DNA of 64,000 bases, from the NCBI GenBank assembly GCA_964587425.1, contig CAZPLB010000002.1, forward strand, positions 31,285 to 95,284, written 5' to 3'. Both the position numbers and the translations under genes were made by a program. Below are positions 14,282 through 52,838 of the stretch, piece by piece (the stretch's first letter is position 1; the number at the start of each line of letters is the position of its first letter). The notes below the pieces were generated by a model, which ran no database searches, had not been told where the DNA came from, and saw only the letters and a list, made by a program, of their open reading frames with translations. This DNA comes from an uncultured Gammaproteobacteria bacterium. GTDB lineage: Bacteria; Patescibacteriota; Microgenomatia; UBA8517.

Positions 14282-14305
14282 CTAACTGCTTTTATTTAAG
14301 CAGAT

Positions 14306-30627: not shown

Positions 30628-31761
30628 CTAAGTAACATCTCTTTTTCTTGTTACTCCAATCAGAATTGCAATCCACCCCAGTACAAAACTATAGAAAAAT
30701 GTATTTGTGAAGCTTCCATGTACTAGTACTGCGGCTAGTATTACTAGAAGTGCAAAACCCATTTCATCTTTCGATGTTTGAGAAATGATGCTTTTTATAC
30801 AAAATAAAAAAACGGTTGTTCCAGCTATTCCTGTTGTCACAAGCAGAAAAAATAGACTATTATCAAGTCCGCTGCACGCATGCGATGCAGAGTTCGTATC
30901 ATTCAAAAACTTTTGCCGTCCAGCACATACATTATCAAATCCAATTCCAAAGATGGGGGATTTGGAAAAAAGAACAATGCTCTCTTTGTAATTCTTGAAT
31001 TTCTCATTAACTGAATATGTTCGAGTCAAGTTAACTCCCTCCCCCGCAGGCCTTGGCAAAATTGGAATAATTAATAGAAAAAACAGGCCCAAGTATATTA
31101 AAAACTTTTTCTTGTATTTTAAAAATACAATTAGGATTGACCCCAGAAGTGCAATATAGCTCGACCTTGAATAAGTGAAAGCAATAGTAGTAATTAAAAA
31201 AATATTTAAGAGGATATTTGTCAAAGATTTCTTACCAGCTGTTTTAACCAAAACCAATATTTCAGTTAGAACTAATATTATTCCAGTAAATGCAGGATCT
31301 AAAAATGTTGAAGCTAACCTGAAATAATGATCATCCCAACCCAAATCTTTCAACTCGCGAAGATCTGGATATATAAAATACTGTAGCCATCCAAGAATGG
31401 CTACAAAAATTCCTACAACCAGTAAGCTTCCAAGTATTAACTTTTTCTTCTTTAAGGTTCCGCTAAACCTCATCCAAATTACCTGGGAAAAGATTACATA
31501 TGAAAAAAAACGAAGAGCATAGAGGCTTCCTCTCAAAACAACCTCTGGGGGAAAAAAGATTGTTGAAAAAACTAATGAGAATAATAAAACAACAAAAAAA
31601 TTCTTGAAGTAATTTGGTATTGGAGTTAAGTTTCTCTTTTTGTAAAAAAAGAAAACAAGGCAAATAATGCCAACCACAATATCAGTTAAATTAAAAATTT
31701 TATATTTCAGCAATTGCCCTAAAGGGAAAATTGCGAGGTATGTAAATATTAATGTGTCCAT
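30628..31761 (-). CDS. O-antigen ligase-like (Wzy_C family) polytopic membrane protein
   Basis: About 10 TM segments with a ..FAYSRSSYIALLGSILIVF.. loop region typical of O-antigen polymerase/ligase family. Confidence 0.55.
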   Translation of the reverse strand: MDTLIFTYLAIFPLGQLLKYKIFNLTDIVVGIICLVFFFYKKRNLTPIPNYFKNFFVVLLFSLVFSTIFFPPEVVLRGSLYALRFFSYVIFSQVIWMRFSGTLKKKKLILGSLLVVGIFVAILGWLQYFIYPDLRELKDLGWDDHYFRLASTFLDPAFTGIILVLTEILVLVKTAGKKSLTNILLNIFLITTIAFTYSRSSYIALLGSILIVFLKYKKKFLIYLGLFFLLIIPILPRPAGEGVNLTRTYSVNEKFKNYKESIVLFSKSPIFGIGFDNVCAGRQKFLNDTNSASHACSGLDNSLFFLLVTTGIAGTTVFLFCIKSIISQTSKDEMGFALLVILAAVLVHGSFTNTFFYSFVLGWIAILIGVTRKRDVT

Positions 31762-32501
31762 TGTTTACTTAAACTAAGATATGAATGAAAGCTCATAAAT
31801 GCTGCTTGAACAAAACCATGTGTACCATCTAAAAATCCAAGCCTCAAAATGTAGTTAACAAAAAATTTTCCCACTGGATGGAAAATGACAAATAAAAAAT
31901 TAAACCTCTTTTTTTCTTTTATATTTTCCTCTGCATGATGTGTTGAATAGTTATTTAAATCAGTTAAAAATTCTTTTATTGAGTTATGTGGATAATGTAA
32001 AATTGGATTATTTAATTCACCAATTTCCCCTTTTACCCGCCATTCCTCATGGACAGCTCTGTTCCATTTGCCGCTTCCTTTTCTAGCAAGTCTTAATAGT
32101 TTGGCATTTGCAGTTTCCCCATGCCTCAATTCCTTTCCCATCCAGTAATCTCTCCTTCTTATGCAGTACCCAGAAATATTTGTTGTTTGTAGTTTATTTA
32201 CAATTTCCTCTGCAAGTTCCTTTGGAACAACCTCATCTGCATCTAAAAATAATACCCATTCATTTTTTGCTTTTTTGAGACCAAAATTTCTTTGTTCTGC
32301 AAAGTTGTTGTCGAGCTTGTGTCTAAATACTTTTACTTTTTTTGATTTAAATAATTTTACAATACGAAGTGTGCCGTCAGTTGAATAATCATCAACAACA
32401 ATAATCTCACTGCACCACATGAGGCTTGCCATACACTTTTTTATATTCCTCTCTTCATTTTTTGTAAGTACGACAGCAGAAATTGAAGTTATATTATGCA
32501 T
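31749..32501 (-). CDS. Family 2 glycosyltransferase
   Basis: GT2 N-terminus VVLTKNEERNIKKCMASL..IIVVDDYSTDGT and DxD (LFLDADE). Confidence 0.75.
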   Translation of the reverse strand: MHNITSISAVVLTKNEERNIKKCMASLMWCSEIIVVDDYSTDGTLRIVKLFKSKKVKVFRHKLDNNFAEQRNFGLKKAKNEWVLFLDADEVVPKELAEEIVNKLQTTNISGYCIRRRDYWMGKELRHGETANAKLLRLARKGSGKWNRAVHEEWRVKGEIGELNNPILHYPHNSIKEFLTDLNNYSTHHAEENIKEKKRFNFLFVIFHPVGKFFVNYILRLGFLDGTHGFVQAAFMSFHSYLSLSKQWTH

Positions 32502-33717
32502 TTCTTAAAGTCTTTTGAAAAAGGTAGAAGGCAACAGGAAGTCCTACAATTGAACCAATCAAAGCCGAGAATGCAGCTCCAGTAATTCCAAACATATTAG
32601 TCAAAGGAAAAATAAATATAGCAAGCGTTAAAATACTAACCAAAGTTACAATTGAAACATAATTCTGTTTCTTGTATGCCAAAAAGACAGAATAAAAAAG
32701 ACTTGTAATTGATCTAATTACGCCAAAAAGAGAAAGAACACGAAGAACTGGTATGGCAAGTAGCCACTTCTCACCCAACACTAGTCTCACTGCAATATCA
32801 GACAAAAGAAAAAGAGCAATTCCAAATGGAGCCACTGTGACAAATGTATATCCTAAAGTTTTATAAAATGCTCTCTTAATTCTTTCCTTGTCTTCTGTAA
32901 ATTTGACGTAAATTGGGAAGGTAACTCTTCCAAGTTGTTTCGCTAAAACATTTAATGGAACTATTGAAAGAGCATATGCCTGCTGATAAATTCCAAGTGA
33001 GAATGCATTCAAAAGGCGCCCTATGGCAAGGTCATCCAAATGTTCAAAGAAATAATCAAAAAGATAAGCAGCTGTTACCCATTTACCGCGGTGAATAATC
33101 CTTAGTAATTGTTCTTTTTCAAACTTCAATTTTGGCCTCTCTTTCACAATGATAAATGTAATAATAATTTCAAGGATTGCAGAAACAATCATTCCTAAAA
33201 CAAAGCTGAAAACAGAATGTGTAGTTAATGCAAAAATGACAACTGAAATATCTCCAATCAAAGATATTGCAAATCTATAAATTGCATCCTCCTTGAACCT
33301 AAGACTTTTTTGCAGAGTTACAATGGCAGGATTAATAAAGCCGCGGATAAATGGCACCAGACTTACTGCAAGAATTACATTGTGCGCTTGAGGTGTTTTG
33401 AAAAATAAGGCAATTGGGTATGAGAAAATTGCTAAAACAAGAGAAATTAAAACTCCCCTTGCAATAGATACCACCCAAGCAGTATCTAAAAACTTTTTTA
33501 CTTCGTCTTTCTCTTGAACTAAAAAGACATTAATCCCTGTTTCAGTTAGAAGTTCCAAAAAACCAAGTATTAAAATTGCTATTCCAAAGACACCAAATTC
33601 AGTTGGAGAAAATATCCTGGAAAGAATTGCAATTTTAATAATGCTCGTTCCTTTCCCAGCCAAATCAAGGAAACTCCCCCAAGAAATCCCTTTTATAACA
33701 TCTCGAGAATACCCCAT
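32494..33717 (-). CDS. Polysaccharide flippase (Wzx/MOP superfamily)
   Basis: 12-TM-like hydrophobicity pattern, gene context between glycosyltransferases. Confidence 0.6.
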   Translation of the reverse strand: MGYSRDVIKGISWGSFLDLAGKGTSIIKIAILSRIFSPTEFGVFGIAILILGFLELLTETGINVFLVQEKDEVKKFLDTAWVVSIARGVLISLVLAIFSYPIALFFKTPQAHNVILAVSLVPFIRGFINPAIVTLQKSLRFKEDAIYRFAISLIGDISVVIFALTTHSVFSFVLGMIVSAILEIIITFIIVKERPKLKFEKEQLLRIIHRGKWVTAAYLFDYFFEHLDDLAIGRLLNAFSLGIYQQAYALSIVPLNVLAKQLGRVTFPIYVKFTEDKERIKRAFYKTLGYTFVTVAPFGIALFLLSDIAVRLVLGEKWLLAIPVLRVLSLFGVIRSITSLFYSVFLAYKKQNYVSIVTLVSILTLAIFIFPLTNMFGITGAAFSALIGSIVGLPVAFYLFQKTLRNA

Positions 33718-34640
33718 ATAAATCCAAGCATTATAGCTATATCGCTTGTTACCTGAAGTATAATTACAAATAGCCCGCTCCGCCAGTCGAGATGCTTATT
33801 TCTAAATTTAAAAATAGAAAAAGCAAAATAAATTAAAACACAAAAAAGTAAGTAAACAGAAGGTAACTCAAAAAACAAAACAAAGGAAAGAAGAGCTAGA
33901 CCAATCAAATACCTCAAAAAAATTGTAAGTGTGTGTATATTGTGCGACCAAAGACCTTTGCTTGGATGAACTATAACTTTTGTTAATACATCACCTTTTG
34001 AATATCCAAAAACTTTTTTACCAAATTCAAAAATATCTTTTGGCATCCCCCACTCTACAATTGCATTTTTCACGACAACAATTTTCACACCGTTTTTCAA
34101 AAGTTTTACGTTAAACAGTGTGTCCTCAGCTGCATCTCTCAGTTTTTCATCAAATCCATGAACCTTTTTCCAAACACTCTTTCTGAAGGCAATAGAGCGA
34201 GTAGAAGGTAAAAAATCATCACCAACTTCATCAGGCATTACCCCCAAATATGGAATCATTGCTCTTTGAAGATATGAGTCTCCAACCATCTTATAAAATC
34301 CAGCTACGACTTCATTTTTCCCACTAACAAATGGTTTCGTTAATTTTGAAAGCCAATCTCTCTGTGGAGTACACCCTGCATCAGTCATTGCAATAATTTC
34401 ATACTTAGAAAGCTTTACACCAAGGTTTCTTCCTTTTGATCTACTAGTTCCTTTTTTTACAATTAATTTTAAGTTTGAAGAAGATTTAAAACTATTAATT
34501 ATTGAAATTGTGTCATCAGTTGATCCAGCATCAACAATAATTATCTCGTCAGGCTTTTTACTTTGTTTTGAAAGTGAAACAAGAAGCTTTTGAATTGATC
34601 CCTCTTCATTTAAAATTGTTACTACTACTGAAACTTTCAC
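33693..34640 (-). CDS. Family 2 glycosyltransferase with C-terminal TM segments
   Basis: VSVVVTILNEEGSIQKLL..IIIVDAGSTDDT GT2 signature, DAG..D motifs, TM tail. Confidence 0.75.
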   Translation of the reverse strand: MKVSVVVTILNEEGSIQKLLVSLSKQSKKPDEIIIVDAGSTDDTISIINSFKSSSNLKLIVKKGTSRSKGRNLGVKLSKYEIIAMTDAGCTPQRDWLSKLTKPFVSGKNEVVAGFYKMVGDSYLQRAMIPYLGVMPDEVGDDFLPSTRSIAFRKSVWKKVHGFDEKLRDAAEDTLFNVKLLKNGVKIVVVKNAIVEWGMPKDIFEFGKKVFGYSKGDVLTKVIVHPSKGLWSHNIHTLTIFLRYLIGLALLSFVLFFELPSVYLLFCVLIYFAFSIFKFRNKHLDWRSGLFVIILQVTSDIAIMLGFIWGILEML

Positions 34641-34943
34641 TTACCCTCTATGTTCTTTTAATCTTAGTTTTACGGTCTTTCTATCCTCAGATTTTTCAGC
34701 CTCCAACTCCGCATCGTCAAAACCAACTTTCAAGAAATAAACAAAAGAATCAGCATCCTTCTTACGCCAATGCCCACTCAGTAATATATTATCTGGATGG
34801 CTATTTAAATTATCTGACTTACCATTAATTAATCTCTTTTTACTAGTACCAAACTCTCCTTTATCTTTCCCTTCCTTTCCCAACTGCACATTATGAACAG
34901 TGTGAACATAATCTGTAATTCTATTTCCTCTTTCTTCGCCCAT
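34641..34943 (-). CDS. Hypothetical basic protein (100 aa)
   Basis: ORF only, abuts the GT2 start; lies between the glycan genes and the RM gene. Confidence 0.3.
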   Translation of the reverse strand: MGEERGNRITDYVHTVHNVQLGKEGKDKGEFGTSKKRLINGKSDNLNSHPDNILLSGHWRKKDADSFVYFLKVGFDDAELEAEKSEDRKTVKLRLKEHRG

Positions 34944-35153
34944 CAGAGAGAGATTAATTCATCTATATATTTTTGCAAGAAGTCAAAGTGGTACATATCC
35001 CATCATTACACGTTAAAAATCTACTTTTTGTTCTTTTTAAGTATTTTTGGATTAATAGCTCGTTTAAGAAGTTCTTCGAAGGTTATCTTTTGTTTTTTCT
35101 TTTTCTTAATCACAAGTTCAATATAACACGAGAAAAACCATAGAAACTTACAC

Positions 35154-37484
35154 TTGTGTTTCTTTAGCAATATAGTTATTATTGTTTACATGAACAACCA
35201 AACGTATAATCTACCTTTGGAAAGAGATACAGAAACCCTCATTGATAGAACTCTTGAAAACCTTGGCTGGATTGATGACCCTAAAAGTAATGCTAGAAAT
35301 GTATACAAGCAACAACCCAAAACCAGCGATCAAAAACGAGCATTGAATGGTCTTTTCCCTGATTACGTACTATATAAAACTGGCTCAGATAAACCAATTA
35401 TTGTGATTGAAGCCAAAAAGCCAAGAAAAAATATTCACGAAGCACTAAAACAAGGATTAGATTACGCACAAAAGATTGGAGCTCCCATTGTTTTTGCCAC
35501 TGACGGAATTTTTACTAAAACACTGCATATTAAAACAAAGAAACCACTCACTCTTAACGGTGAAGAACTTGATGAACTTATTAGGGAGTATATCGCCTTA
35601 CAATATATAGATACTAGCGATTTAACCACTAAAGACAAAAAAGTAATCGAGTCTCGAAAAGAGCTAATCGGTATATTTGATCATGCCAATGACATATTGC
35701 GTGGTGAAGGACTCCATGCAGGAGTTGATAGATTTAGTGAATTTGCCAATATTCTTTTTTTGAAGATAATATCTGAGCGAGAGGATATTAACGAACAAAA
35801 TGGGGATGCTAACGTAATACCAAGAGAATACCGCTGGAACTTCTTTAAGAATAAGAGGGATAACGAGTTGAGACAATATATCAACTCGATTGTCCTTAGA
35901 TATTTCAGGGAAAGATATAACGATTCAAATATATTCACAGATCTTCGGATTAAAAACCCGAATCGATTAAAGAAAATAATAGAAATGCTCGATCCTCTTT
36001 ATCTGATAGATACTAAAGCAGATATAAAAGGTGATGCTTTTGAGTACTTCTTAAAGTCGTATAGCTCGGGAAATAGTAATGATCTTGGGCAATATTTCAC
36101 ACCTAGACACATCGCTAAAACTTTAGTTAAGCTACTGAACCCCCAACTTGGTGAAAAGATCTATGATCCCTTCTGTGGAACAGGTGGGATGTTGACAGAA
36201 TCTTTCAAATATATTTTCAATCGAATGCCACAGAATAGAAATTCTGAAGATATTTTGAAAACTAGTACAGTATACGGACGAGAGTTAACTAGCATCGCCA
36301 GAATCGCCAAAATGAATATGATATTGATAGGTGATGGCCATAGTAATATTGAGCAGACAGACAGTCTTGAGCACCCATTATCAAATGAATATGATGTGGT
36401 AATAACAAACATCCCATTTGCACAAGAAACTGAGTGGGGAAACCTTTATGACCTACCAAGCAGAAATGGTGACAGTATATGCCTACAGCACTGCCTTAAA
36501 TCTCTAAACTCTAATAATCCAAATAGTCGAGCTGGAATTATTGTACCAGAAGGTTTCTTGTTTGATTCAAGATTTGAGAAAGAAAGAGAGTGGTTAGTTG
36601 AAAAATTTGACTTACAAACTGTTATTTCTCTACCTTCTGGCGTTTTCCTACCATATACTCCACAAAAGGCTAGTATTTTGCATGTAAAACTAAGAGATAA
36701 AGCTAAGAAGAAGAAAAATGTTTGGTTTTTTGACGTAAAGTCAGATGGTTACACCTTAGATAATTACAGGAAACCAACTGATAAAAATGACTTAGACAAT
36801 CTACTGGACGGCATACATTTTGATTCACTGGAAATAAGCGAACTAAGAAAAAGAAAATATGAATTAGTTAGATCACTCTATATTAAAGGTGGAATAATTG
36901 GAGGGAAACATAAAACAGTAGATCTAAAGTCGATAGCAACCGTTGCGTTTGGTAATTCGGCACCACAAGACCTTGATAGTTTCATAGACGGAACCCACCC
37001 TTTCGTTAGAGTCTCCGATCTCGCAAAGAAACATATAGCATTTAATTTAACAGATACTAGAGATTTGCTTAACGACAAAGCAGTAAAAAATATGCGACTT
37101 TTTCCTAAGGGAACGATACTTTTTCCTAAAAGTGGTAAATCAGCTCTGAAAAACCATAGAGGTATATTAGGCCGTGACGCTTATCTGGTAAGTCACTTCG
37201 CTTGTATTATCCCTAATGTTGACATAGTTGATCCCTACTACCTGTTTAAATGTTTAATAAATATTAAAGCTCAGGACATCATAGTGAACGAAGGCTATCC
37301 TTCAATCAGGAAGGAGACGTTTGAAAATCTACAGATTCCACTACCACCAATAGAGAAACAAGAGGAATTAGTTAAAGAAATGAAAGAAATAGTAGATTTA
37401 GAGTATAGAGTTAACGAGCTTATGAGTAATATGGATATACGATTTGAATCTGAAAATGCTACTTTAGAGAACAATGACAAATAA
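35154..37484 (+). CDS. Single-polypeptide Type IIG-like restriction-modification enzyme (HSDR_N/Mrr-like PD-(D/E)xK nuclease domain + gamma-class N6-adenine MTase + one HsdS-like target recognition domain)
   Basis: N-terminus PDYVLYKTGSDKPIIVIEAKKP (HSDR_N motif); MTase motifs GQYFTPRHIAK (X), DPFCGTGGML (I), VVITNIPFAQ (IV, NPPF-type); C-terminal ~300 aa with HsdS-like TRD features (..KIGDLFE-like block, IPLPPIEKQEELV conserved HsdS repeat motif). Confidence 0.75.
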   Translation: MCFFSNIVIIVYMNNQTYNLPLERDTETLIDRTLENLGWIDDPKSNARNVYKQQPKTSDQKRALNGLFPDYVLYKTGSDKPIIVIEAKKPRKNIHEALKQGLDYAQKIGAPIVFATDGIFTKTLHIKTKKPLTLNGEELDELIREYIALQYIDTSDLTTKDKKVIESRKELIGIFDHANDILRGEGLHAGVDRFSEFANILFLKIISEREDINEQNGDANVIPREYRWNFFKNKRDNELRQYINSIVLRYFRERYNDSNIFTDLRIKNPNRLKKIIEMLDPLYLIDTKADIKGDAFEYFLKSYSSGNSNDLGQYFTPRHIAKTLVKLLNPQLGEKIYDPFCGTGGMLTESFKYIFNRMPQNRNSEDILKTSTVYGRELTSIARIAKMNMILIGDGHSNIEQTDSLEHPLSNEYDVVITNIPFAQETEWGNLYDLPSRNGDSICLQHCLKSLNSNNPNSRAGIIVPEGFLFDSRFEKEREWLVEKFDLQTVISLPSGVFLPYTPQKASILHVKLRDKAKKKKNVWFFDVKSDGYTLDNYRKPTDKNDLDNLLDGIHFDSLEISELRKRKYELVRSLYIKGGIIGGKHKTVDLKSIATVAFGNSAPQDLDSFIDGTHPFVRVSDLAKKHIAFNLTDTRDLLNDKAVKNMRLFPKGTILFPKSGKSALKNHRGILGRDAYLVSHFACIIPNVDIVDPYYLFKCLINIKAQDIIVNEGYPSIRKETFENLQIPLPPIEKQEELVKEMKEIVDLEYRVNELMSNMDIRFESENATLENNDK

Positions 37485-37507
37485 AAAAGATTTCGACAAA
37501 TTGCTTA

Positions 37508-37738
37508 AAAAGGTAAAATTATTATATGGAGCAACTCTAAAAAGAAGTTCTTTAAAAATCCCTTCTTTTCTGTAGTTATATCTGAAAGCATATTCATCGC
37601 ATAAGTTTGAAGATATTTGGGATCAACGTGCACATAAAACCCCGTTATTCCTCTTTTTACTTGTCCCCAAAACCCTTCAATTGTATTAGTGTGTATTTCA
37701 GGATTATCAACCTTCGATAACCTCTTATCTAGAAGTAT
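37508..37738 (-). pseudogene. IS1595-family (ISXO2-like) transposase, C-terminal remnant only (~77 codons)
   Basis: Minus-strand translation ..DNPEIHTNTIEGFWGQVKRGITGFYVHVDPKYLQTYAMNM.. matches the conserved IS1595 C-terminal block (HTNTIEGFWS.LKRGI.GVYHHVS.KHLQRY); no upstream DDE part remains, frame closed by a stop at 37739-37741. Confidence 0.6.
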
Positions 37739-38600
37739 TTACCTTCCAAAGTTTCAAATATAACTGGGCGACTTTGTCCCAAGTTTGTTGTCTTGCCCAA
37801 CTATTTGCATCCTCATCTAAAAATGGAGATAGCTTCCAATAATCTTTTTTCAAAGTATTATCCCAACCAACCATTAGCTTGCATCCACTACTCAAAGCTT
37901 CAAGAGCTACAAGGTATCCTCCTGCAAAACAAATTTGTGATTTCTTGTAATAAAGATGTGGGTCAGTAAATCCATGAACTGTTCCATATTTTTCACAAGT
38001 TTCACGCAACCGTCCATCACCACAAAATTCAACTGAGTAACTTTTGTGTGTATCTAAAAATTTGAACAGTTTTTTTATCCCAGTATCCCACTCTAATCTT
38101 CCAACATACAAAATACTATTTCTTTTTCTTTTACTATTTGTTCTTTTCATAGTTTCAATTCCGCCATACGTAATATAATCAGCTTTTACTCCATACCACT
38201 TCTCTATATATTCCCCAACTGCAATACTCCCCCAGGAAAGTTTGCATGCAAGTCTTTTCAAAAAAATATTTTTGAATGGAATTGGAAACTTTCCTTCCCA
38301 ACCATGAAATGTTGTGTAAACAGGTTTATGTAGAAAAAGAAATCGGAAAGGTAAGTACCAAACAAAAACATCATGACAGTGGACAATATCAACACCTAAA
38401 ATTAATTTTCTGTTTTTGAACAGCCAGAACCATATATAAATAAGTCCAAGAATTTTAATGTTGGGGTATTTAATATCTTCAGTAGAAATCGTCTTGACTT
38501 TATGACCTTTTAAATTTAACCTGCTACTTAAACTATATATGTGTCTTTCAACACCACCTCTGTGTGGCCAAGAATATCTAGCTAAAAAGAGTACTCTCAT
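37725..38600 (-). CDS. Glycosyltransferase (GT-B, group 1-like, short)
   Basis: N-terminus MRVLFLARYSWPHRGGVERHI typical of GT4-type N-domain; C-terminal FAGGYLVALEALSSGCKLM helix. Confidence 0.55.
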   Translation of the reverse strand: MRVLFLARYSWPHRGGVERHIYSLSSRLNLKGHKVKTISTEDIKYPNIKILGLIYIWFWLFKNRKLILGVDIVHCHDVFVWYLPFRFLFLHKPVYTTFHGWEGKFPIPFKNIFLKRLACKLSWGSIAVGEYIEKWYGVKADYITYGGIETMKRTNSKRKRNSILYVGRLEWDTGIKKLFKFLDTHKSYSVEFCGDGRLRETCEKYGTVHGFTDPHLYYKKSQICFAGGYLVALEALSSGCKLMVGWDNTLKKDYWKLSPFLDEDANSWARQQTWDKVAQLYLKLWKVNTSR

Positions 38601-39334
38601 TTTTTTGAAGAAAGGATGTAAATTTGAGATTCTCCAAATAGAGGTATCGTAAGCGTGTCAATAAATGCAAAAGTGTCAGAAAGAGATCCTTTGAGAAATC
38701 TAATAATATTTCCAGCAAAACGATTGGTAAATAAAAAATTCCTTAGAATACCTTCAGTTTTGTAAGTACGTAAAATATTCATCTTTCGATCCAGTAACAA
38801 TTCACTCAAGTCTCCCAAAGTATATCGTCTTAGATGTCCCACTCTTTCGTCAAAACCCTTAAGCATATTTAATCTATAAAGAGGGGCGTTTTTTGAAGGA
38901 ACAGATAATAATAGCAAACCATCATCTTTTAAATAATTCTTTACATAATTTAGAACCTTCCGATCGTCCTTTAGGTGTTCTAATACCTCTGTCATCAAAA
39001 TTAAATCGTATTTACCCTTAACCTTAATTGTTTGAAACTTACCAGAAACAAACCTAGCGTTATTGTTCAAAGACAAAAACTCTGCACTTGAAATTGCTGT
39101 ATCAATTGCTCGTTTGGAGATATCAACACCAAGGACTTTACTGCCTTTTGAAGCTAAATATAAACTTACTGTACCAACACCACATCCAATGTCCAAAACT
39201 TTCTTATCCCCGTTAAGAAGAGAATTTTCATTAAGTATCCAGAATAGATTCCTATAAGTAAAATTATTTTTAGCTATAATCTTTTTCTGAATTCTTGTGA
39301 CACTGTGGTATTTTTCGTATAACAAATTACTCAC
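38597..39334 (-). CDS. Class I SAM-dependent methyltransferase
   Basis: VLDIGCGVGTVSLYLASKGSKVLGVDISKRAI motif I and post-I. Confidence 0.7.
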   Translation of the reverse strand: MSNLLYEKYHSVTRIQKKIIAKNNFTYRNLFWILNENSLLNGDKKVLDIGCGVGTVSLYLASKGSKVLGVDISKRAIDTAISSAEFLSLNNNARFVSGKFQTIKVKGKYDLILMTEVLEHLKDDRKVLNYVKNYLKDDGLLLLSVPSKNAPLYRLNMLKGFDERVGHLRRYTLGDLSELLLDRKMNILRTYKTEGILRNFLFTNRFAGNIIRFLKGSLSDTFAFIDTLTIPLFGESQIYILSSKK

Positions 39335-39521
39335 AATGGAAGTCTAACAATAAAGTTTCCACTTGACAAATATTGCGATTTCATACTTTACTGAAACAGG
39401 TGAACAAATTGAAATCCAAGATAGGATTAACTTTAACCCTTGCAATAACACTGTTGTCTGTCTCTCTCAAAAATAAAGGAGGTTGTGGAATCAACTCCCC
39501 ATATCTCTGGAGATTTGCTAT

Positions 39522-40100
39522 ATGAGAGAGGATCCACCTCTCGTAGACCTCAAAGTCACAAATCCTATTACTTACATCAAAAAATGGTGGGGTAAAATAA
39601 TTGGAAATGAAGGTATAGACTTCAGGTTTCGTGTTCACCCCTTAACTGCCCTTGCAATCGCAATAGTTATAGCCAGTATTGGTTTTGGAGTAGGAAGATT
39701 CATCTTACCTTTCCCAATCCCCTTCTTTCAGTACAATAATGAAACTGGACAAGTAGATAAAGTATCTCCAACCGCAAACCCGTGGAGGGAAACTGCATAT
39801 ACTGGAACTCTTCAATTTTCAAAAGCAACAAGCCTCTACTATCTTCAAGTTACATCATCCTCTGAAGCAATAACCCTTCAAACTCCATCAAATATTGATT
39901 TCGAACCCCTGATTGGGAAAAGAATACTTGCTATAGGAAGTTACAACAAGGGAACCAGAACCCTAGTTGTAGCCGATGCCAAAGACCTAGAAATCCTTCC
40001 AAAATCACCTATTCCAATACCAACAATCGAGCCAACAAACACCACAGCACCAACTGCAACACAAACTCCATTATCTGAGCCTACGAACCAGCCATATTAG
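39522..40100 (+). CDS. Membrane-anchored extracytoplasmic protein with Pro/Thr-rich C-terminus, unknown function
   Basis: One TM helix (LTALAIAIVIASIGFGVG) then a beta-rich region and a PT-rich tail; start taken at the internal ATG (MREDPP..); the overlapping minus-strand 85-aa ORF was rejected. Confidence 0.4.
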   Translation: MREDPPLVDLKVTNPITYIKKWWGKIIGNEGIDFRFRVHPLTALAIAIVIASIGFGVGRFILPFPIPFFQYNNETGQVDKVSPTANPWRETAYTGTLQFSKATSLYYLQVTSSSEAITLQTPSNIDFEPLIGKRILAIGSYNKGTRTLVVADAKDLEILPKSPIPIPTIEPTNTTAPTATQTPLSEPTNQPY

Positions 40101-40135
40101 CCAAAATTGCACCAATTTAACCCACTTTGAACATC

Positions 40136-40164
40136 TTGACAAAGACCAAATATACTATTAATAT
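40136..40164 (+). promoter_or_regulatory. Sigma70-like promoter TTGACA-N17-TAATAT
   Basis: Read directly: cTTGACAaagaccaaatatactatTAATAT. Confidence 0.4.
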
Positions 40165-40235
40165 GTAAAAAGTTAAATGTACGGGACCAAAAACAGATTG
40201 ATGTTTTTGTTGCCCCTTGCAAAAAGGGTATATGA

Positions 40236-40262
40236 CCTCGACCAAAAGTCGGGGCTTTTTAT
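40236..40262 (+). terminator. Intrinsic terminator-like hairpin (CCUCGAC-CAAAA-GUCGGGG) followed by CUUUUUAUU
   Basis: 7-bp stem with one G-U pair and a U-tract, ~70 nt downstream of the promoter above and ~55 nt upstream of the secreted-protein operon. Confidence 0.4.
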
Positions 40263-40318
40263 TGTCCAAAACTTGACTTTTAGTATTATAGGATTATAAT
40301 ACGGACGATTAGATAAAT

Positions 40319-42310
40319 ATGGCAAACAGAGAAGCATTGTTAGTCGCCACAGTTTTAACAGCAGCTGTCACCACAGGCAGTATTGCATCAGCCTCCCAAA
40401 ATAACACCGATCTCGAAGGAAAAGATAAAGACAAAACCTTTTGTTCACCCGATAGTCTAAACATTCTAACAAAACAAGCAGATCAAAAATGTGCACAATG
40501 GTCACTTTCCACTGCCGCTCCTTTGGTTAACACTGTCCCAAGTACTTTTAATGATTTAGAAGCTCAGGCTGAACATATGCGTAGAATTGAGGTATCAGGT
40601 GAAGCAAATACACAAGCTGAAGATACGAGATTTTCACGAGTCGAGAGACAAAATGTCATTGGAAACCCTAATATTGCAGCCATAGCACTAGATTCCTTTC
40701 CACTTGGAGACTTAACTTCACCTGACAATGCCCAGAATATTTCTACTGCTACAAATCCCGGGATTATTCCAATGGATACTTTCTATAGTGCCCTAGAAGC
40801 AGACTTGAATGCACATTTTCAAGGAGATGAACTGCAAAATGAACTAAGTAAGTTTCAAGAAGTAAAAGTTAAATATGACAGCGAAAGAGCTTTTGTGGCT
40901 CAATGGTTGGGAACAGATGTGGAAAATATAGATGCAGAATTAGTGATTCTATCTAGCACATATCAAGGGGTAGCTGATACAGGAATACTTCTTCATCCTA
41001 CAATAGGCCAAGGAGTACTTGACACAGGAGTACCTGCTTACTTTTTAGATGCAGATGGAATTGTTGGTCCAGATGGACAAGAGATTCCAAGAGGATCATT
41101 CTTAACTACTTTTAACAATCATGGAATTGCAGATGTTGCTGTAATGAGATATGACACAAGTGGAAGCAGTTCACTTAATTTAATCACGCTTGAAGAACCA
41201 GGAGGCACTACAGTTATACCAGCCAGATACAATACTGATGGGCAGCTTGTTTCTATCTTAATGAAAGGCCAAGAACAATATGATTATGCCCAAGAAATGG
41301 CAGTCCATTTTGGCAAAATAAATACCACAGCGTCTTATGTAAATGTACGAGATGATGTGACAGGTCAACCACTAAAAACACCAAACGGTGCGCCTTTTGT
41401 GTTCAACGATGGGTTTGACGTAATAGTTTTTGATAATAGTAAAGGAATGATACCTAACACAAATATAGAAGGTGAGCGTGTTCTTCTTCCAGCAGGTACT
41501 ACGGCTCTTGTTGCATCAAGTTTAATTGAGGATTCTCAAAACATACCATTACTAGGAGCGGGTATACCTCTTACCCCCGTTTCACCCACAATTGTAGATA
41601 ATCAGAATCAAACTCAAAACCAAGAAAACGCAGGTGTAGAAGTTGTTGTGGTACCGGCATTTGATCCAGAAAATTCAATTTTCGAAAATGCCAGTTTTTC
41701 ACCACAGGCAGAATTAAGTTCAACAACAGGAAATTACACTGTTGCATACAGTAATGGAGTTATGGAACTCGCTGGAAAATCGTCTATTTCTTCGCCTGCA
41801 AATGTCATGGATCAGGCATACCAAACCATACTTAATTTAGCTCTAAATCTTTCAGGAACTCCCACCCCCGAAGATGTTGAAATGCGAGGGGTAACTAATG
41901 GTGCACACGACGCAAACCCAGGTCACATTAGCGGTTCATTGAGTGGAATAGAACAATACATTGTAACTACACAAGAATTTATAAGTATCAAGGCAAATTT
42001 TGAGTCTCAAACAGAAATTGAATATGTCGAAATAGTTCCACCTCAACAATATTTGGTAGGAGCCATCATCTATCGAGACGCAGCAGGAAAATATATCCTT
42101 ATTAACTCTGAAACATTTTCAGGACTAAGACGTCGTTTTAACGCCCAGGAGGCAATCAAAAACGGACCAGCTCTTGCTGAATTTTATTTTATTGATGGAA
42201 TGGCCGCAGGGAAAGGAACCTCTCCTGCAATCAATGTAACAAATATGTACGAAATATTTGGTTGGACAGAGGCTTTGGGATGTCAAAACTGTTCACTTGT
42301 ACTCCAATAG
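40319..42310 (+). CDS. Large secreted protein (663 aa), unknown function
   Basis: Signal peptide MANREALLVATVLTAAVTTGSIASA; no recognisable catalytic motifs. Confidence 0.55.
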   Translation: MANREALLVATVLTAAVTTGSIASASQNNTDLEGKDKDKTFCSPDSLNILTKQADQKCAQWSLSTAAPLVNTVPSTFNDLEAQAEHMRRIEVSGEANTQAEDTRFSRVERQNVIGNPNIAAIALDSFPLGDLTSPDNAQNISTATNPGIIPMDTFYSALEADLNAHFQGDELQNELSKFQEVKVKYDSERAFVAQWLGTDVENIDAELVILSSTYQGVADTGILLHPTIGQGVLDTGVPAYFLDADGIVGPDGQEIPRGSFLTTFNNHGIADVAVMRYDTSGSSSLNLITLEEPGGTTVIPARYNTDGQLVSILMKGQEQYDYAQEMAVHFGKINTTASYVNVRDDVTGQPLKTPNGAPFVFNDGFDVIVFDNSKGMIPNTNIEGERVLLPAGTTALVASSLIEDSQNIPLLGAGIPLTPVSPTIVDNQNQTQNQENAGVEVVVVPAFDPENSIFENASFSPQAELSSTTGNYTVAYSNGVMELAGKSSISSPANVMDQAYQTILNLALNLSGTPTPEDVEMRGVTNGAHDANPGHISGSLSGIEQYIVTTQEFISIKANFESQTEIEYVEIVPPQQYLVGAIIYRDAAGKYILINSETFSGLRRRFNAQEAIKNGPALAEFYFIDGMAAGKGTSPAINVTNMYEIFGWTEALGCQNCSLVLQ

Positions 42311-42332
42311 GATTTAATTGTATTATTGATTA

Positions 42333-42896
42333 GTGTCTAATAAGAAAATAATCGCCCTAATTTTTGTTTTTTGTGTAATTCTTCTTTTTGTTGCGCTTAA
42401 ATTAATAACAGCCAATCAATTCAAGTCCACACTATCCTCTCAACAAATTTATTTTGAATCCAACATACCCGATTTCAAGGTATCTCTAAAAAACGAGATA
42501 GATCTTAAAAATGCTCTGGAAAATTCAGGTCTTTGGGAGAAAGATAGAGTGAACAATTCCATTAATCCCGGTACTAAAATTACAGCGAATAATTTATTTA
42601 TTAATGTGTCATTAAAGACAGTCCACCCTTTTTATATACAAAATGATAAAGATGGTCACATGATAATCGAAGTAGAGTCTTTCACTGACACATCCAATAA
42701 CTTACATATAAACATAGGTATCGGCAATTACCTATTAAATAACCCCAAAAATGATACAGCAACATGGATTGATGCAGCTTTCTGGTCCGCAGTGAGATTT
42801 TCCATCAAAGATCCGACTATCATAGAAGAAGTGGCTTATGGAAGTACAAAAGGTATAAAATTATCTACATTCAAAATAACACCAATAAATAAATGA
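42333..42896 (+). CDS. N-terminally anchored extracytoplasmic protein (187 aa)
   Basis: TM helix IIALIFVFCVILLFVALKLI; overlaps the next gene by 4 nt (operonic). Confidence 0.5.
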   Translation: MSNKKIIALIFVFCVILLFVALKLITANQFKSTLSSQQIYFESNIPDFKVSLKNEIDLKNALENSGLWEKDRVNNSINPGTKITANNLFINVSLKTVHPFYIQNDKDGHMIIEVESFTDTSNNLHINIGIGNYLLNNPKNDTATWIDAAFWSAVRFSIKDPTIIEEVAYGSTKGIKLSTFKITPINK

Positions 42897-44599
42897 AAAT
42901 AAAATTATCCATAATATTATTTTTTGTTGGTTTTATGTTCTTTAACCCCAGTTCAGTAAATGCTCAACTTTCATGTCAAGGAAATACACCAAAAGCTGGT
43001 ACCCAAGAAAGACAAGTCTGTACAGATTCAGGCGGTAATCCATGTAGTTTTGGTGACCCCGGCTGTACCTGTTCAACAGTATGTGATGGCACAATATGGA
43101 CTTGTAACAGTTGCAGTAGCGGTCCAGGAGCAGGCGGATGCGGTGACGACTACTCATGCATCGGAATTACTAACTGGGTATGCGTTGTTCCTGGTACAGG
43201 GGGTTGTCATTGGGTAAACACGAGTACCCCAGCCCCAACAACTGGACCAACTGCATCTCCAGCCCCAGGTTCTTGTACCTCAGGTGATCCTTTCTATGGA
43301 CTCAGTAACTGTGGAGAAGTAGGAAGAGTAAATGGCTCAGGTAACTGTGGCGCTGGTTGTCTTTGCTGTGCAACTACTGGATCATTTAGTCCTCCTACCT
43401 GCAGTTTAGGTGTCCATAGTGGCTCTCTTGCAACAGGTCCCCTTTTAAGTAATGGGCAAAATTATAATATCCCCCTTAACGTCAATAAATTAACAGAATC
43501 TCGTACAAGCACAAACGGATGGGTACGAACCATATCCTATTTTGTTTCAGATACCTCAAAAGCATTCTTAAGTCCAGGTGGTCCCCAAAGAATAGTTCGT
43601 TTCTGTGATTGTAATACATTACCATGCACTAATTCATACACAGGTGGTACATGTGGTAGTACAAACCCCCAATCTGTCACAAATCAGTTTGTCCACGGCC
43701 TTTCAACTCTTACACCCTACTCTACTCTAACTGTTGCAACAACATGCCAGGGTCCTGGGGGAAGCGTTCAGAGAAGCCAAACCTTCCATTTGGTCGTAGT
43801 TGATACCCCTGCTTGGTGGCAGACAAAAGGTGGAGATGTAATGTCTGGTGACAATCTAGTATCAAAAATTCCTGCAACATGTACAGGGGCTTGTATCCCC
43901 GATCTCATTCTTGATGCTCCATCCCCACAAGGAAGCGGTTACCCCGGAGTGGCAGTGTATGGCACCGGCTACGATTTTTCAGACGGCAGTGGAGTTGGCA
44001 TTACCTCAACCAAAAATTGGTTAGCTCAATCAACGTATACAGGTAAAACATATAATTACAATTATTTTGATACTCTTGTACCAAGCGACGTCACTTTTGT
44101 AAATGTATCAGGGTCAGTAGGTGGTGGAACCTTTGTCTCACAGGGAACTCCAAACAAAGGATATGTATGGTTCAAATCTACTGGTGATTTAACAATCAAC
44201 AGTAATATTAACTTGAGTGCAAGAAAAGTAATTCTTCTGGTTAATGGAAACTTAACCATTCAGGGGCCAATTAATGTAACTGATGGTCAGGGCTTTTTCT
44301 TAACTGTTGTTTCTGGAACAACATCATTTGACCCAAGCTTAGGAGGATCAAGCGGAAGTCCATCTATTGAAGGTATGTTCCTCTCAGATGGAGGAATTTC
44401 AACGGGTGGTGGAAATGTTGCCTTTTACGAACGTGGCTCGATAGTTGCAAACGGAGGGTTAAATCTGCAAAGGAATCTGGGAACAACCAATAACAAAACC
44501 AATCCAGCAGAAGTTTTTGAATACGCCCCAGATATGATACTTAACTTTCCAAGATCTCTTGCAAGATCCAAAATAATCTGGCAGGAAGTAGCGCCGTAA
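42893..44599 (+). CDS. Secreted Cys-rich protein with a C-terminal beta-helix-like repeat region
   Basis: Signal peptide, then ~150 aa with >25 Cys (CQGNTPKAG..CTDSGGNPCSFGDPGCTCSTVCDG..), then Gly/Asn/Thr-rich repeats (..NINLSARKVILLVNGNLTIQGPINVTDG..) reminiscent of right-handed beta-helix adhesins. Confidence 0.5.
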   Translation: MKIKLSIILFFVGFMFFNPSSVNAQLSCQGNTPKAGTQERQVCTDSGGNPCSFGDPGCTCSTVCDGTIWTCNSCSSGPGAGGCGDDYSCIGITNWVCVVPGTGGCHWVNTSTPAPTTGPTASPAPGSCTSGDPFYGLSNCGEVGRVNGSGNCGAGCLCCATTGSFSPPTCSLGVHSGSLATGPLLSNGQNYNIPLNVNKLTESRTSTNGWVRTISYFVSDTSKAFLSPGGPQRIVRFCDCNTLPCTNSYTGGTCGSTNPQSVTNQFVHGLSTLTPYSTLTVATTCQGPGGSVQRSQTFHLVVVDTPAWWQTKGGDVMSGDNLVSKIPATCTGACIPDLILDAPSPQGSGYPGVAVYGTGYDFSDGSGVGITSTKNWLAQSTYTGKTYNYNYFDTLVPSDVTFVNVSGSVGGGTFVSQGTPNKGYVWFKSTGDLTINSNINLSARKVILLVNGNLTIQGPINVTDGQGFFLTVVSGTTSFDPSLGGSSGSPSIEGMFLSDGGISTGGGNVAFYERGSIVANGGLNLQRNLGTTNNKTNPAEVFEYAPDMILNFPRSLARSKIIWQEVAP

Positions 44600-52256: not shown

Positions 52257-52838
52257 ATGTATTTGCACAACAAAAATTTGTGTGCTACATTTGGCAGCAT
52301 GGGAATATCAAAAGAAATTGAAAACGAACGTTTACAATTTGGAACAAGACCAAAAACTTTCACACAAGCATTGGTTCGTTTGCCTGACCATGGAGTATTT
52401 GTGAGAGGTGACACGGAACTTGAATCGCTCATGTCTCTCCGGTTTCAATTAACCTACGCTTTAAAAATGGGTTGCTCGGCAGACTCTCTAACCGAAAGAA
52501 TGTACCCACTAGAACCAAAAGAAATGGCTCTTCTCGAAAAGTTTTCTTTCAAAAGAAATGAAGTAATCGCAACTGGTAAATGGATCGCCCTAGGGAGAAA
52601 TAAAGTATGGAATACAATGTTTGGATCCGAAGATGACGATTACAGACACTACAATGTAACATCGATTACTCCAACCCTCGACAGGAAACGACCACAGATG
52701 ATTTGCATACAAGAACACGATGATTATTCCAAAACAAGCTGGGATTGGGAAACAGACGCTATTTCAACATTCTATATTGGGATTATCACAAGCAAAGAGC
52801 TTAGTGAACTTAAGAAAGCACTCCAGGAAGAAATTTAA
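52257..52838 (+). CDS. Hypothetical protein (193 aa)
   Basis: ORF only; 4-nt tail-to-tail overlap with the ftsZ stop region. Confidence 0.35.
   Translation: MYLHNKNLCATFGSMGISKEIENERLQFGTRPKTFTQALVRLPDHGVFVRGDTELESLMSLRFQLTYALKMGCSADSLTERMYPLEPKEMALLEKFSFKRNEVIATGKWIALGRNKVWNTMFGSEDDDYRHYNVTSITPTLDRKRPQMICIQEHDDYSKTSWDWETDAISTFYIGIITSKELSELKKALQEEI

What the first reader, a model, noticed from the sequence alone, without database searches (positions are those of the whole stretch)
35154..37484. Single-chain Type IIG-like R-M-S enzyme inserted into a surface-glycan gene cluster
One 776-aa ORF combines an HSDR_N/Mrr-type nuclease motif (IVIEAKKP), the gamma-class N6-adenine MTase motifs (FTP, DPFCGTGG, NIPF) and a single HsdS-like TRD. 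That is a complete restriction-modification system in one polypeptide. The next gene is an IS1595 transposase remnant, and together they interrupt a run of glycosyltransferase, flippase and O-antigen-ligase genes (30628-34640 and 37725-39334), so this looks like a horizontally acquired defence insertion. At 776 aa it is shorter than the characterised Type IIG enzymes I know, so specificity and cleavage geometry are unknown. The 100-aa ORF 34641-34943 immediately upstream could be part of the same insertion.
Basis: partly seen in the sequence, partly recalled or inferred. Interest (0 to 1): 0.65.

Follow-up and report, generated by a model that had tools for sequence, protein, structure and literature searches.

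The report
Single-chain restriction-modification enzyme inserted in glycan operon
One intact 764-residue gene fuses a DNA-cutting domain, a DNA adenine methylase and a single DNA-recognition domain; it sits in a 3-kb piece of foreign DNA that split a cell-surface sugar operon of a Patescibacteria bacterium, and it is a clear but ordinary example of a known enzyme class (combined Type IIG/IIB, HaeIV-like layout).

Summary
The ORF is real. Its true start is most likely ATG 35190 (764 aa), not TTG 35154. It contains an HsdR-type PD-(D/E)xK nuclease domain, an HsdM-type gamma-class N6-adenine methyltransferase, one HsdS-type TRD and a C-terminal conserved helix.

The insertion claim is also supported. 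In four related genomes the two flanking glycosyltransferase genes overlap directly. In the window, 3.08 kb lies between them: an orphan 100-aa ORF, the RMS gene and the IS1595 transposase tail. Two Woesebacteria carry a split nuclease-methylase gene plus a separate S gene at the same junction.

The architecture is known: HaeIV is written 2R~gammaM~[TRD], with a symmetric bipartite site cut on both sides. Homologues number at least hundreds and include temperate Acinetobacter phages and plasmids. Most are annotated only as "N-6 DNA methylase".

Verdict: new member of a known kind. Activity, recognition site and cleavage geometry are untested. Interest is low to moderate.

The parts
35190..37484 (+). 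RMS gene: 764-aa single-chain nuclease-methyltransferase-specificity protein (stop codon included).
   Evidence: ORF. The start is set by alignment with homologues and by the exact database entry P0001. Domains by Pfam. AlphaFold model: pLDDT 82, pTM 0.77.
35190..35684 (+). N-terminal PD-(D/E)xK nuclease domain (aa 1-165), HsdR N-terminal type.
35358..35417 (+). Catalytic motif P57-D58-Y59 ... I73-E74-A75-K76 (PD-x15-ExK).
   Evidence: Coordinates. D58, E74 and K76 are invariant in 49/49 homologues and in 56/56 when two-TRD homologues are included.
35685..35999 (+). Helical HsdM_N-like domain (aa 166-270).
   Evidence: Weak HsdM_N hit. It aligns with the N-terminal helical part of the HsdM structures 2okc and 5ybb. 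The model is helical here.
36000..36824 (+). Gamma-class N6-adenine methyltransferase catalytic domain (aa 271-545). Motif X FTP at 36096-36104, motif I DPFCGTGG at 36165-36188, motif IV NIPF at 36408-36419.
   Evidence: N6_Mtase E 3.6e-46. PDB sequence hits to HsdM 2okc (2e-40) and 5ybb (4e-37). Foldseek top hits are HsdM structures. The motifs are invariant.
36912..37343 (+). Single HsdS-type target recognition domain (aa 575-718).
   Evidence: Methylase_S E 4.8e-11. HsdS 1yf2, E 3.8e-9. PADLOC Specificity_I, E 2.6e-16. Identity to homologues is bimodal, 45-81% or 10-22%, which indicates TRD swapping.
37344..37481 (+). C-terminal conserved-region helix (PLPPIEKQ..., aa 719-764). It is the predicted dimerisation helix, equivalent to an HsdS CR.
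   Evidence: The model shows a continuous helix over aa 729-763. The PLPP..Q motif is shared with CR1 and CR2 of two-TRD homologues. The dimerisation role is inferred.
34944..35189 (.). Intergenic region upstream of the RMS gene. It contains one weak promoter-like match at 35147-35176 (CTTACA-18-TATAGT).
   Evidence: The number of promoter-like matches in the region does not exceed that of shuffled sequence, so this is only a candidate.
34641..34943 (-). Orphan 100-aa ORF inside the insert. Its stop codon abuts the GTG start of the GT2b gene.
   Evidence: ORF. No Pfam, NCBIfam or PADLOC hit. No homologue except itself. Not related to the IS remnant.
37518..37714 (-). Remnant of an IS1595-family transposase gene: C-terminal about 65 codons with one frameshift. 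The 5' two-thirds are missing.
   Evidence: Six-frame translation. PF12762 E 3.4e-13, covering profile positions 111-153 of 153. tblastn coordinates.
34641..37724 (.). Inserted segment of about 3.08 kb between the GT2b start and the GT4 stop. It is absent from related genomes.
   Evidence: In L005 and L009 the GT2b start lies 32-35 nt inside the 3' end of GT4. L010 has a 4-nt overlap and L011 has the two genes adjacent.
37725..38600 (-). GT4 glycosyltransferase gene, the upstream half of the split operon junction.
   Evidence: Glyco_transf_4. Homologues of 44-58% identity in the syntenic operons of L005-L009.
33693..34640 (-). GT2 glycosyltransferase gene (GT2b), the downstream half of the split junction. 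It is followed by flippase, GT2 and Wzy genes.
   Evidence: Glycos_transf_2. Syntenic homologues.

Best explanation
The gene encodes a self-contained, motor-less restriction-modification enzyme of the combined Type IIG/IIC kind. In effect it is the HsdR nuclease head fused to an HsdM methylase and half of an HsdS subunit.

**Shown**
- All three modules are present and intact.
- The catalytic residues are invariant and under purifying selection.
- There is no ATPase motor.
- No partner R or S gene lies next to it, here or in four homologue contexts.
- The gene travels on its own between genomes, phages and plasmids.

**Inferred mechanism**
- Two chains pair through the C-terminal conserved helix. 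This rebuilds a TRD-CR/TRD-CR specificity unit, as half-size HsdS proteins and HaeIV do.
- The dimer reads a symmetric bipartite sequence: a half-site of about 3-4 bp, a spacer of about 5-7 bp, then the inverted half-site.
- With AdoMet it methylates one adenine in each strand of the host's sites.
- At unmethylated sites on incoming DNA, the two PD-(D/E)xK domains cut at fixed short distances, probably on both sides of the site (Type IIB behaviour). Cutting possibly needs two sites or higher-order assembly, as for BcgI and TstI.

**Origin of the locus**
The gene arrived in this Patescibacteria (Woesebacteria-like) chromosome inside a 3.08-kb insertion. The insertion carries an IS1595 relic and split the tightly coupled GT4-GT2b junction of a surface-glycan operon.
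For: **Architecture and folds**
- Pfam domains.
- HsdM and HsdS hits in PDB sequences.
- Full-length model with pLDDT 82; Foldseek hits HsdM structures, BpuSI over the full length (891 columns) and the BsaXI RM subunit.

**Catalytic integrity**
- D58, E74, K76, DPFCGTGG and N407-x-P409 are invariant in 49/49 sequences. The nuclease triad holds in 56/56 with two-TRD homologues added.
- Mean identity is 57% for the nuclease domain and 60% for the methylase domain.
- dN is 0.10-0.15 in the nuclease domain while synonymous sites are saturated.

**R-M-like evolutionary behaviour**
- TRD identity is bimodal, which indicates TRD swapping.
- One-TRD P0017 and two-TRD P0018 are 75% identical up to the start of CR1. 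The tail of P0017 matches the end of CR2, so the one-TRD form is a half of the two-TRD form.

**Autonomy and mobility**
- No HsdR or HsdS gene is adjacent in the window, L002, L004 or phage JX403940.
- Only the coding sequence is shared between loci.
- Full-length homologues occur in 35 phage records, the listed ones mostly temperate Acinetobacter phages, and on plasmids.

**Insertion**
- Empty sites in L005, L009, L010 and L011.
- IS1595 relic.

**Precedent**
- HaeIV is described as 2R~gammaM~[GAY], site 7/13 GAY N5 RTC 14/9, a dimer in solution (PMC3874165, PMC4081073, PMC3177199).
- An engineered HsdM-half-HsdS fusion dimerises and is active (PMC6158711).
Against: - No activity, methylation motif or oligomeric state was measured.
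- Dimerisation could not be modelled.
- The gene shows no compositional anomaly.
- No promoter or terminator signal stands above background.
- No target-site duplication or terminal inverted repeats flank the insert.
- A search for depleted symmetric bipartite motifs in the 64-kb window found nothing significant. This test has little power and is not expected to work for such enzymes.
- PADLOC's Type IIG profiles match only the methylase core. The best PADLOC label is "Type I methyltransferase".
Confidence: 0.7

Rival explanations
1. The same single-chain R-M-S enzyme acts like MmeI or BpuSI (Type IIG/IIL). A monomer reads a contiguous asymmetric site with its single TRD, methylates one strand only and cuts on one side. 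Cleavage is completed by transient dimers formed between neighbouring sites.
Against: The TRD is a sequence-detectable HsdS TRD followed by the PLPP..Q conserved-region helix. That helix pairs TRDs in HsdS. Close relatives carry the complete TRD1-CR1-TRD2-CR2 unit. The methylase is far closer to HsdM (E 2e-40) than to MmeI-type methylases.
Confidence: 0.18
2. It is functionally a solitary methyltransferase-specificity fusion, with an epigenetic role or a role in protecting DNA. The N-terminal nuclease-like domain would no longer cut DNA and would serve binding or regulation instead.
For: Sources annotate family members only as "N-6 DNA methylase". PADLOC's best label is MTase_I. Phage-borne copies could serve self-protection.
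Against: The catalytic D, E and K residues are invariant in all 49-56 homologues. The nuclease domain is as conserved as the methylase. dN is low while dS is saturated. TRD swapping is typical of arms-race R-M enzymes. In phage JX403940 the gene sits beside the repressor gene, the usual place for lysogen-expressed defence genes.
Confidence: 0.08
3. It is the M-S part of a Type I system. Restriction would depend on a separately encoded HsdR motor subunit elsewhere in the genome.
For: The methylase and TRD are HsdM-like and HsdS-like. Engineered HsdM-half-HsdS fusions restrict when HsdR is supplied (PMC6158711).
Against: No HsdR gene lies near the gene in the window or in L002, L004 or the phage. 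The protein already carries the nuclease head that HsdR would supply. Only 64 kb of this genome was examined.
Confidence: 0.03
4. It is the MAD2 methyltransferase of a methylation-associated defence system (MADS).
For: NCBIfam MAD2 gives E 3.6e-33. The PADLOC mad2 profile gives E 6.7e-48 over aa 61-552.
Against: The NCBIfam score of 114.8 bits is far below the 720-bit cut-off. No other mad genes are adjacent; the neighbours are glycan genes and an IS relic. The match is explained by shared HsdM-type domains.
Confidence: 0.01

Closest known systems
HaeIV (Haemophilus aegyptius), single-chain Type IIB/IIG/IIC enzyme
   Same: One polypeptide carries the nuclease, a gamma-class m6A methylase and a single specificity domain. 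No separate methylase is needed. HaeIV is described as 2R~gammaM~[GAY]: a homodimer that reads the symmetric bipartite site GAY N5 RTC and cuts on both sides (PMC3874165, PMC4081073, PMC3177199, PMC3039593).
   Different: Sequence relatedness to HaeIV was not tested. The recognition site, dimer state and cleavage positions of the window protein are unknown.
BcgI and BsaXI, two-subunit Type IIB systems ((RM)2S)
   Same: They combine an N-terminal PD-(D/E)xK nuclease, an HsdM-like methylase and an HsdS-like specificity unit, and they have no motor. The BsaXI RM subunit is a structural match (Foldseek E 2e-17). Two Woesebacteria carry a split nuclease-methylase gene plus a separate S gene at the same junction.
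   Different: There the S unit is a separate two-TRD subunit. BsaXI RM has 916 aa with extra knob and paddle elements (PMC11997821). In the window protein one TRD is fused to the chain.
AloI, PpiI, TstI and CjeI, single-chain Type IIB enzymes
   Same: They have the same R-M-S order in one chain, with HsdS-type TRDs.
   Different: They are about 1250 aa with two TRDs (TRD1-CR1-TRD2-CR2), read asymmetric bipartite sites and form tetramers (PMC3874165, PMC4027205). The two-TRD members of the present family are only about 940-976 aa.
BpuSI, MmeI and DrdV, Type IIG/IIL enzymes with solved structures
   Different: Their specificity domains are not detectable as HsdS TRDs by sequence. They read contiguous asymmetric sites and cut on one side. 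They are larger: 870 residues in the solved BpuSI chain and 1016 in the DrdV chain.
Type I R-M systems (HsdR, HsdM, HsdS), including half-size HsdS and engineered HsdM-half-HsdS fusions
   Different: The protein has no SF2 translocase and no separate subunits. Cleavage is therefore expected near the site rather than at distant collision points.

Membership tests
Type IIG/IIC combined restriction-modification enzymes | The DNA-cleavage domain (PD-(D/E)xK) lies in the same chain as the methylase. | tested here: met
Type IIG/IIC combined restriction-modification enzymes | Gamma-class N6-adenine methyltransferase: motif order X, I, IV, with the specificity module C-terminal. | tested here: met
   FTP at aa 303, DPFCGTGG at aa 326, NIPF at aa 407, then the TRD at aa 575-718. 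HsdM structures are the top hits.
Type IIG/IIC combined restriction-modification enzymes | No ATP-dependent translocase. | tested here: met
   The four mapped modules fill the 764 aa. There is no helicase or ATPase hit in Pfam, NCBIfam or PADLOC.
Type IIG/IIC combined restriction-modification enzymes | Cleavage at fixed positions near the site, stimulated by or requiring AdoMet. | not testable with these tools
   This needs biochemistry.
Type IIB, HaeIV-like (homodimer of R~M~one-TRD chains) | A single chain with exactly one TRD. | tested here: met
   One Methylase_S stretch is found. Long-form homologues have two.
Type IIB, HaeIV-like (homodimer of R~M~one-TRD chains) | Homodimerisation that pairs two identical TRDs. 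| not tested
   This is only inferred, from the C-terminal CR helix and from the half/full relation of P0017 and P0018.
Type IIB, HaeIV-like (homodimer of R~M~one-TRD chains) | A symmetric bipartite recognition site with double-strand cuts on both sides. | not testable with these tools
   No methylome or cleavage data exist. The motif-depletion scan was uninformative.
Type IIB, HaeIV-like (homodimer of R~M~one-TRD chains) | Sequence homology to HaeIV. | not tested
Type I restriction-modification system | An HsdR subunit with an SF2 motor, acting with separate or fused M and S. | tested here: not met
   There is no motor domain in the chain. No HsdR gene is adjacent in the window, L002, L004 or phage JX403940.
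Type ISP (LlaGI-like) | A helicase-like ATPase between the nuclease and the methylase in one chain. | tested here: not met
   Only a helical HsdM_N-like segment of about 105 aa lies between them.
MADS (MAD2 methyltransferase) | NCBIfam equivalog score at or above the cut-off, plus neighbouring mad genes. | tested here: not met
   The score is 114.8 bits against a cut-off of 720. The neighbours are glycan genes.
IS1595 element or composite transposon | An intact DDE transposase with terminal inverted repeats and a target-site duplication. | tested here: not met
   Only the last 43 profile positions remain, with a frameshift. No flanking inverted or direct repeats were found. There is no second copy in the window.

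The most novel reading that the evidence does not exclude
Two linked readings are not excluded by the evidence.

1. The 750-800-aa family may be the minimal natural "HsdR nuclease head + HsdM + half HsdS" enzyme, working as a homodimeric Type IIB cutter. It is widespread in Patescibacteria, Firmicutes, Acinetobacter phages and plasmids. It is effectively invisible to annotation, being called "N-6 DNA methylase" by sources and "MTase_I" by PADLOC.

2. The GT4|GT2b junction of the Woesebacteria surface-glycan operon may be a recurrent landing site for such motor-less R-M modules. The window holds the fused RMS gene there. Two other genomes hold a LexA-like gene, a nuclease-methylase fusion, an S gene and in one case an ATPase. 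This would physically couple two anti-phage layers: a variable surface glycan and restriction.
Probability: 0.35. Interest if true: 0.45.

Novelty: new member of a known kind. Interest (0 to 1): 0.3.

Why it matters
- **Defence in a reduced genome.** It adds a well-supported, compact, self-sufficient restriction-modification gene to a Patescibacteria (CPR) genome. Defence systems in such reduced genomes are of interest.

- **A rare empty-site demonstration in CPR.** Related genomes show the uninterrupted junction, so the defence gene can be seen to have been dropped into a surface-glycan operon.

- **An annotation gap.** At least hundreds of full-length homologues, including copies in temperate Acinetobacter baumannii phages, are labelled only as methylases. 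Counts of complete R-M systems probably miss them.

- **A possible reagent source.** If the predicted homodimeric cutting on both sides holds, the family could supply small Type IIB enzymes.

None of this changes current understanding of how such enzymes work.

Tried and rejected
1. **Depleted symmetric bipartite motifs.** I scanned the 64-kb window with half-sites of 3-4 nt and spacers of 4-8 nt (1060 tests). The best p was 0.0013, which is not significant after correction. This gives no clue to specificity.

2. **Repeats flanking the insert.** I searched for a target-site duplication or terminal inverted repeats. Only short chance-level repeats turned up. A 20-nt repeat shared by the 100-aa ORF and the IS relic suggested that the ORF might be a second IS1595 relic. 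BLASTP and Pfam at E up to 10 found no relation, so the idea was rejected.

3. **The 100-aa ORF.** It has no Pfam, NCBIfam or PADLOC hit and no homologue in two very large protein searches. It cannot be assigned a role. A controller-protein role was considered, but nothing supports it.

4. **Promoter and terminator scan.** Counts did not exceed those from shuffled sequence. There is one weak candidate promoter upstream of ATG 35190 and no terminator between the RMS gene and GT4.

5. **Boundaries of the mobile unit.** blastn against L002, L003 and L004 showed that only the coding region 35205-37414 is shared (72-74% identity). The flanks are unrelated.

6. **MADS membership.** Rejected on score and on gene context.

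7. **Literature on family members.** I looked for a determined methylation motif, for example in Acinetobacter prophage carriers. None was found.

8. **Phase variation.** The gene has no homopolymer of 8 or more bases.

9. **Fold search against afdb50.** The library was not available.
Full report

Yes. The ORF 35154..37484 (+) exists. Every close homologue starts at the position of the ATG at 35190. The exact 764-aa product is a database entry (P0001), found on a 13-kb Logan contig and a 195-kb NCBI contig. I therefore take 35190..37484 as the gene.

- IVIEAKKP at aa 71-78
- FTP at aa 303-305
- DPFCGTGG at aa 326-333
- NIPF at aa 407-410

Pfam finds HSDR_N and HSDR_N_2, a weak HsdM_N, N6_Mtase (E 3.6e-46) and one Methylase_S domain (E 4.8e-11). 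The flanking genes are a Wzy-type polymerase/ligase, two GT2 glycosyltransferases, a flippase, a GT4 glycosyltransferase and a SAM-methyltransferase, all on the minus strand.

The "IS1595 remnant" is real. A frameshift-corrected minus-strand reading of about 37518-37714 hits DDE_Tnp_IS1595 at E 3.4e-13, but it covers only the last 43 of 153 profile positions.

**2. Are the three modules credible?**

*Methylase and TRD.* The methylase is a close relative of Type I HsdM subunits (2okc E 2e-40, 5ybb E 4e-37). The TRD is related to HsdS (1yf2 E 3.8e-9).

*Full-length model.* An AlphaFold model built from 49 homologues has pLDDT 82 and pTM 0.77. Foldseek returns HsdM structures first. It then returns the Type IIG enzyme BpuSI aligned over its whole length, and the RM subunit of the Type IIB enzyme BsaXI.

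- lower scores to restriction-endonuclease-like proteins, DrdV, Cas4, EcoR124I HsdR and Hjc

*Conservation.* In an alignment of 49 one-TRD homologues (43-83% identity), D58, E74, K76, DPFCGTGG and N407-x-P409 are invariant. The nuclease triad stays invariant when two-TRD homologues are added. Mean identity to the window protein is 57% for the nuclease domain and 60% for the methylase domain.

The TRD behaves differently. Its identity is either 45-81% or only 10-22%, which is the signature of TRD swapping on a conserved catalytic scaffold. Between the three closest genes, dN is 0.10-0.15 in the nuclease domain while synonymous sites are saturated. The nuclease is therefore maintained by selection and is not a relic.

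**3. One TRD or two?**

The family has two length classes: about 750-800 aa with one Methylase_S stretch, and about 940-976 aa with two.

P0017 (776 aa) and P0018 (955 aa) are 75% identical through R, M, TRD1 and the start of the first conserved region. The C-terminal tail of P0017 then matches the very end of P0018. The short form is thus the long form minus the distal part of CR1, TRD2 and the proximal part of CR2. This is the relation known for half-size and full-size HsdS subunits.

The window protein ends in a 35-residue helix that begins with the PLPPxxxQ motif. By analogy, two chains should pair through this helix. A dimer of this kind has two nucleases, two methylases and two identical TRDs. 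That matches what the literature writes for HaeIV: 2R~gammaM~[GAY], site 7/13 GAY N5 RTC 14/9, a dimer in solution that cuts on both sides (PMC3874165, PMC4081073, PMC3177199). An engineered HsdM-half-HsdS fusion also dimerises and is active (PMC6158711).

The dimer, the symmetric site and the two-sided cut are inference. None of them was tested here.

**4. Is it an insertion?**

Yes, on good evidence. I fetched loci around homologues of the GT4 gene from species-representative genomes and mapped the window's genes onto them.

*Empty sites.* Two Patescibacteria MAGs (L005, L009) carry the operon SAM-MTase-GT4-GT2b-flippase without interruption; L009 also shows the downstream GT2 and Wzy genes, while the short L005 contig ends within the flippase gene. 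In both, the GT2b start codon lies 32-35 nt inside the end of GT4. Two more distant genomes show the same GT4-GT2b adjacency: L010 has a 4-nt overlap and L011 has the genes directly adjacent.

*The window.* Here 3.08 kb lies between the GT4 stop (37725) and the GT2b start (34640). The order is the IS1595 tail, starting about 10 nt after the GT4 stop, then the antisense RMS gene, a 246-bp spacer and the 100-aa ORF. An overlapping junction shared by several lineages is unlikely to be recreated by precise deletion, so insertion is the parsimonious reading.

*Mobility of the gene.*
- The 83%-identical copy lies after unrelated Polysacc_synt and Wzy genes and before an MFS transporter gene (L002).
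- The 79%-identical copy abuts a large serine recombinase gene and phage-like genes (L004).
- Only the coding sequence is shared between these loci.
- Full-length homologues (38-45% identity) occur in 35 phage records. The listed ones are mostly temperate Acinetobacter phages; in JX403940 the gene sits beside the repressor gene. Others lie on plasmids of Clostridium kluyveri, A. baumannii and Geobacillus.

*Missing signals.* There is no GC anomaly, which is compatible with a low-GC Patescibacteria donor. No repeats flank the insert.

**5. The same junction elsewhere**

In two Woesebacteria genomes (L007, L008) the GT4|GT2b interval holds a different set of genes:
- a LexA-like gene;
- a 649-aa HSDR_N_2 + N6_Mtase fusion, which has an AADIIIY...VVEVK motif and is 25% identical to the window protein;
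- a separate two-TRD S gene;
- an AAA_21 ATPase gene in L007;
- in L008 only, several further genes lying between GT4 and the LexA-like gene, including Ldh_2, short-chain dehydrogenase and ATP-grasp genes.

This is the split RM + S layout of BcgI and BsaXI. A third genome (L006) has a 380-aa membrane protein gene there. The junction therefore looks like a variable spot that has taken up motor-less R-M modules more than once. Three cases are not enough for statistics.

**6. The 100-aa ORF**

It lies inside the insert, and its stop codon abuts the GTG start of GT2b. It has no family hit and no homologue other than itself in 5.8 billion clustered proteins or in 1.84 billion representatives scanned with HMMER. 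It may be a chance ORF in inserted DNA. It could also be a young sequence that now supplies translation or transcription signals for the cut-off downstream half of the operon. That second idea is speculation.

**7. Comparison with known systems and novelty**

The protein works like, and fits the definition of, a combined Type IIG/IIC enzyme. The three sequence-level criteria are met; the biochemical criterion cannot be tested here. Its layout is that of HaeIV.

It is not any of the following:
- a Type I system or a Type ISP enzyme, because it has no motor;
- a MADS component (115 bits against a 720-bit cut-off, and no mad neighbours);
- part of an active IS1595 element.

Its length is normal for its family. 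It is nevertheless shorter than the characterised examples I could document: BpuSI (870 residues in the solved chain), DrdV (1016 in the solved chain), AloI (about 1250 aa), and BsaXI (916 + 476 aa).

It is a new member of a known kind. The modestly useful points are three: the empty-site proof in a CPR genome, the recurrent junction, and the fact that annotation pipelines and PADLOC label the family only as a methylase.

**8. Limits**

- No enzymatic, methylome or oligomer data exist.
- HaeIV homology was not tested.
- Only 64 kb of the genome was inspected for partner genes.
- The motif-depletion scan was negative and has low power.

Noticed in passing
window 52835-55117 (-): A 760-aa FtsZ is interrupted by an intein. 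The Tubulin GTPase and FtsZ_C domains are split by Intein_splicing (aa 132-483, E 1.8e-15), which carries LAGLIDADG homing-endonuclease motifs. An intein in the cell-division protein of a Patescibacteria genome may deserve its own look.
   Followed up: no
L007 10917-16598 and L008 15380-19292 (Candidatus Woesebacteria GWB1_33_22 and GWB1_33_38): At the same GT4|GT2b junction these genomes carry a LexA-like gene (LexA_DNA_bind + Peptidase_S24). It lies directly upstream of a 649-aa nuclease-methylase fusion and a two-TRD S gene. L007 also has an AAA_21 ATPase gene (weak mad3, AriA and PtuA matches) between them. A LexA-type repressor attached to an R-M cassette is unusual.
   Followed up: partly
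L006 10854-11996 (Candidatus Woesebacteria GWF1_31_35, CP011214): A 380-aa multi-pass membrane protein gene occupies the GT4|GT2b junction in this complete genome. This is a third different content at the same spot.
   Followed up: no
phage records, e.g. JX403940.1 587-2854 (L012 3992-6259): Full-length homologues (37.6% identity, 96% coverage) occur in many temperate Acinetobacter baumannii phages (Vieuvirus and relatives); 35 phage records in all hold a full-length match. In JX403940 the gene lies next to the repressor gene. The annotations vary: hypothetical protein, N-6 DNA methylase, "putative restriction-modification protein".
   Followed up: partly
plasmids CP000054.1, CP000055.1 and NC_019229.1 (Rickettsia felis pRF), 5754-7185: The homologous region is annotated as two adjacent genes: "HsdR N-terminal domain-containing protein" and "N-6 DNA methylase". 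It matches only aa 8-461 in two pieces. It may be a split or decayed copy of the same family.
   Followed up: no
window 39483-44599 (+): Four consecutive ORFs lie just beyond the glycan operon (205, 663, 187 and 568 aa). The three that were scanned (205, 663 and 568 aa) have no Pfam hit. The 663-aa and 205-aa products look secreted or low-complexity.
   Followed up: no
window 10183-11964 (-) and 13163-15391 (-): There is a PolX-type polymerase with a PHP domain, and two adjacent Peptidase_C39_2 proteins, one with Big_5 and one with TPR repeats. These are ordinary, and are recorded only for context.
   Followed up: no
L004 2457-3809 (-) and 5101-7608 (-): The 79%-identical RMS homologue is convergent with a large serine recombinase gene and overlaps it by 4 nt. 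Nearby lie a terminase-like gene and two N6_N4_Mtase genes, one fused to ParB_N. The homologue therefore sits in a prophage or integrative element.
   Followed up: no
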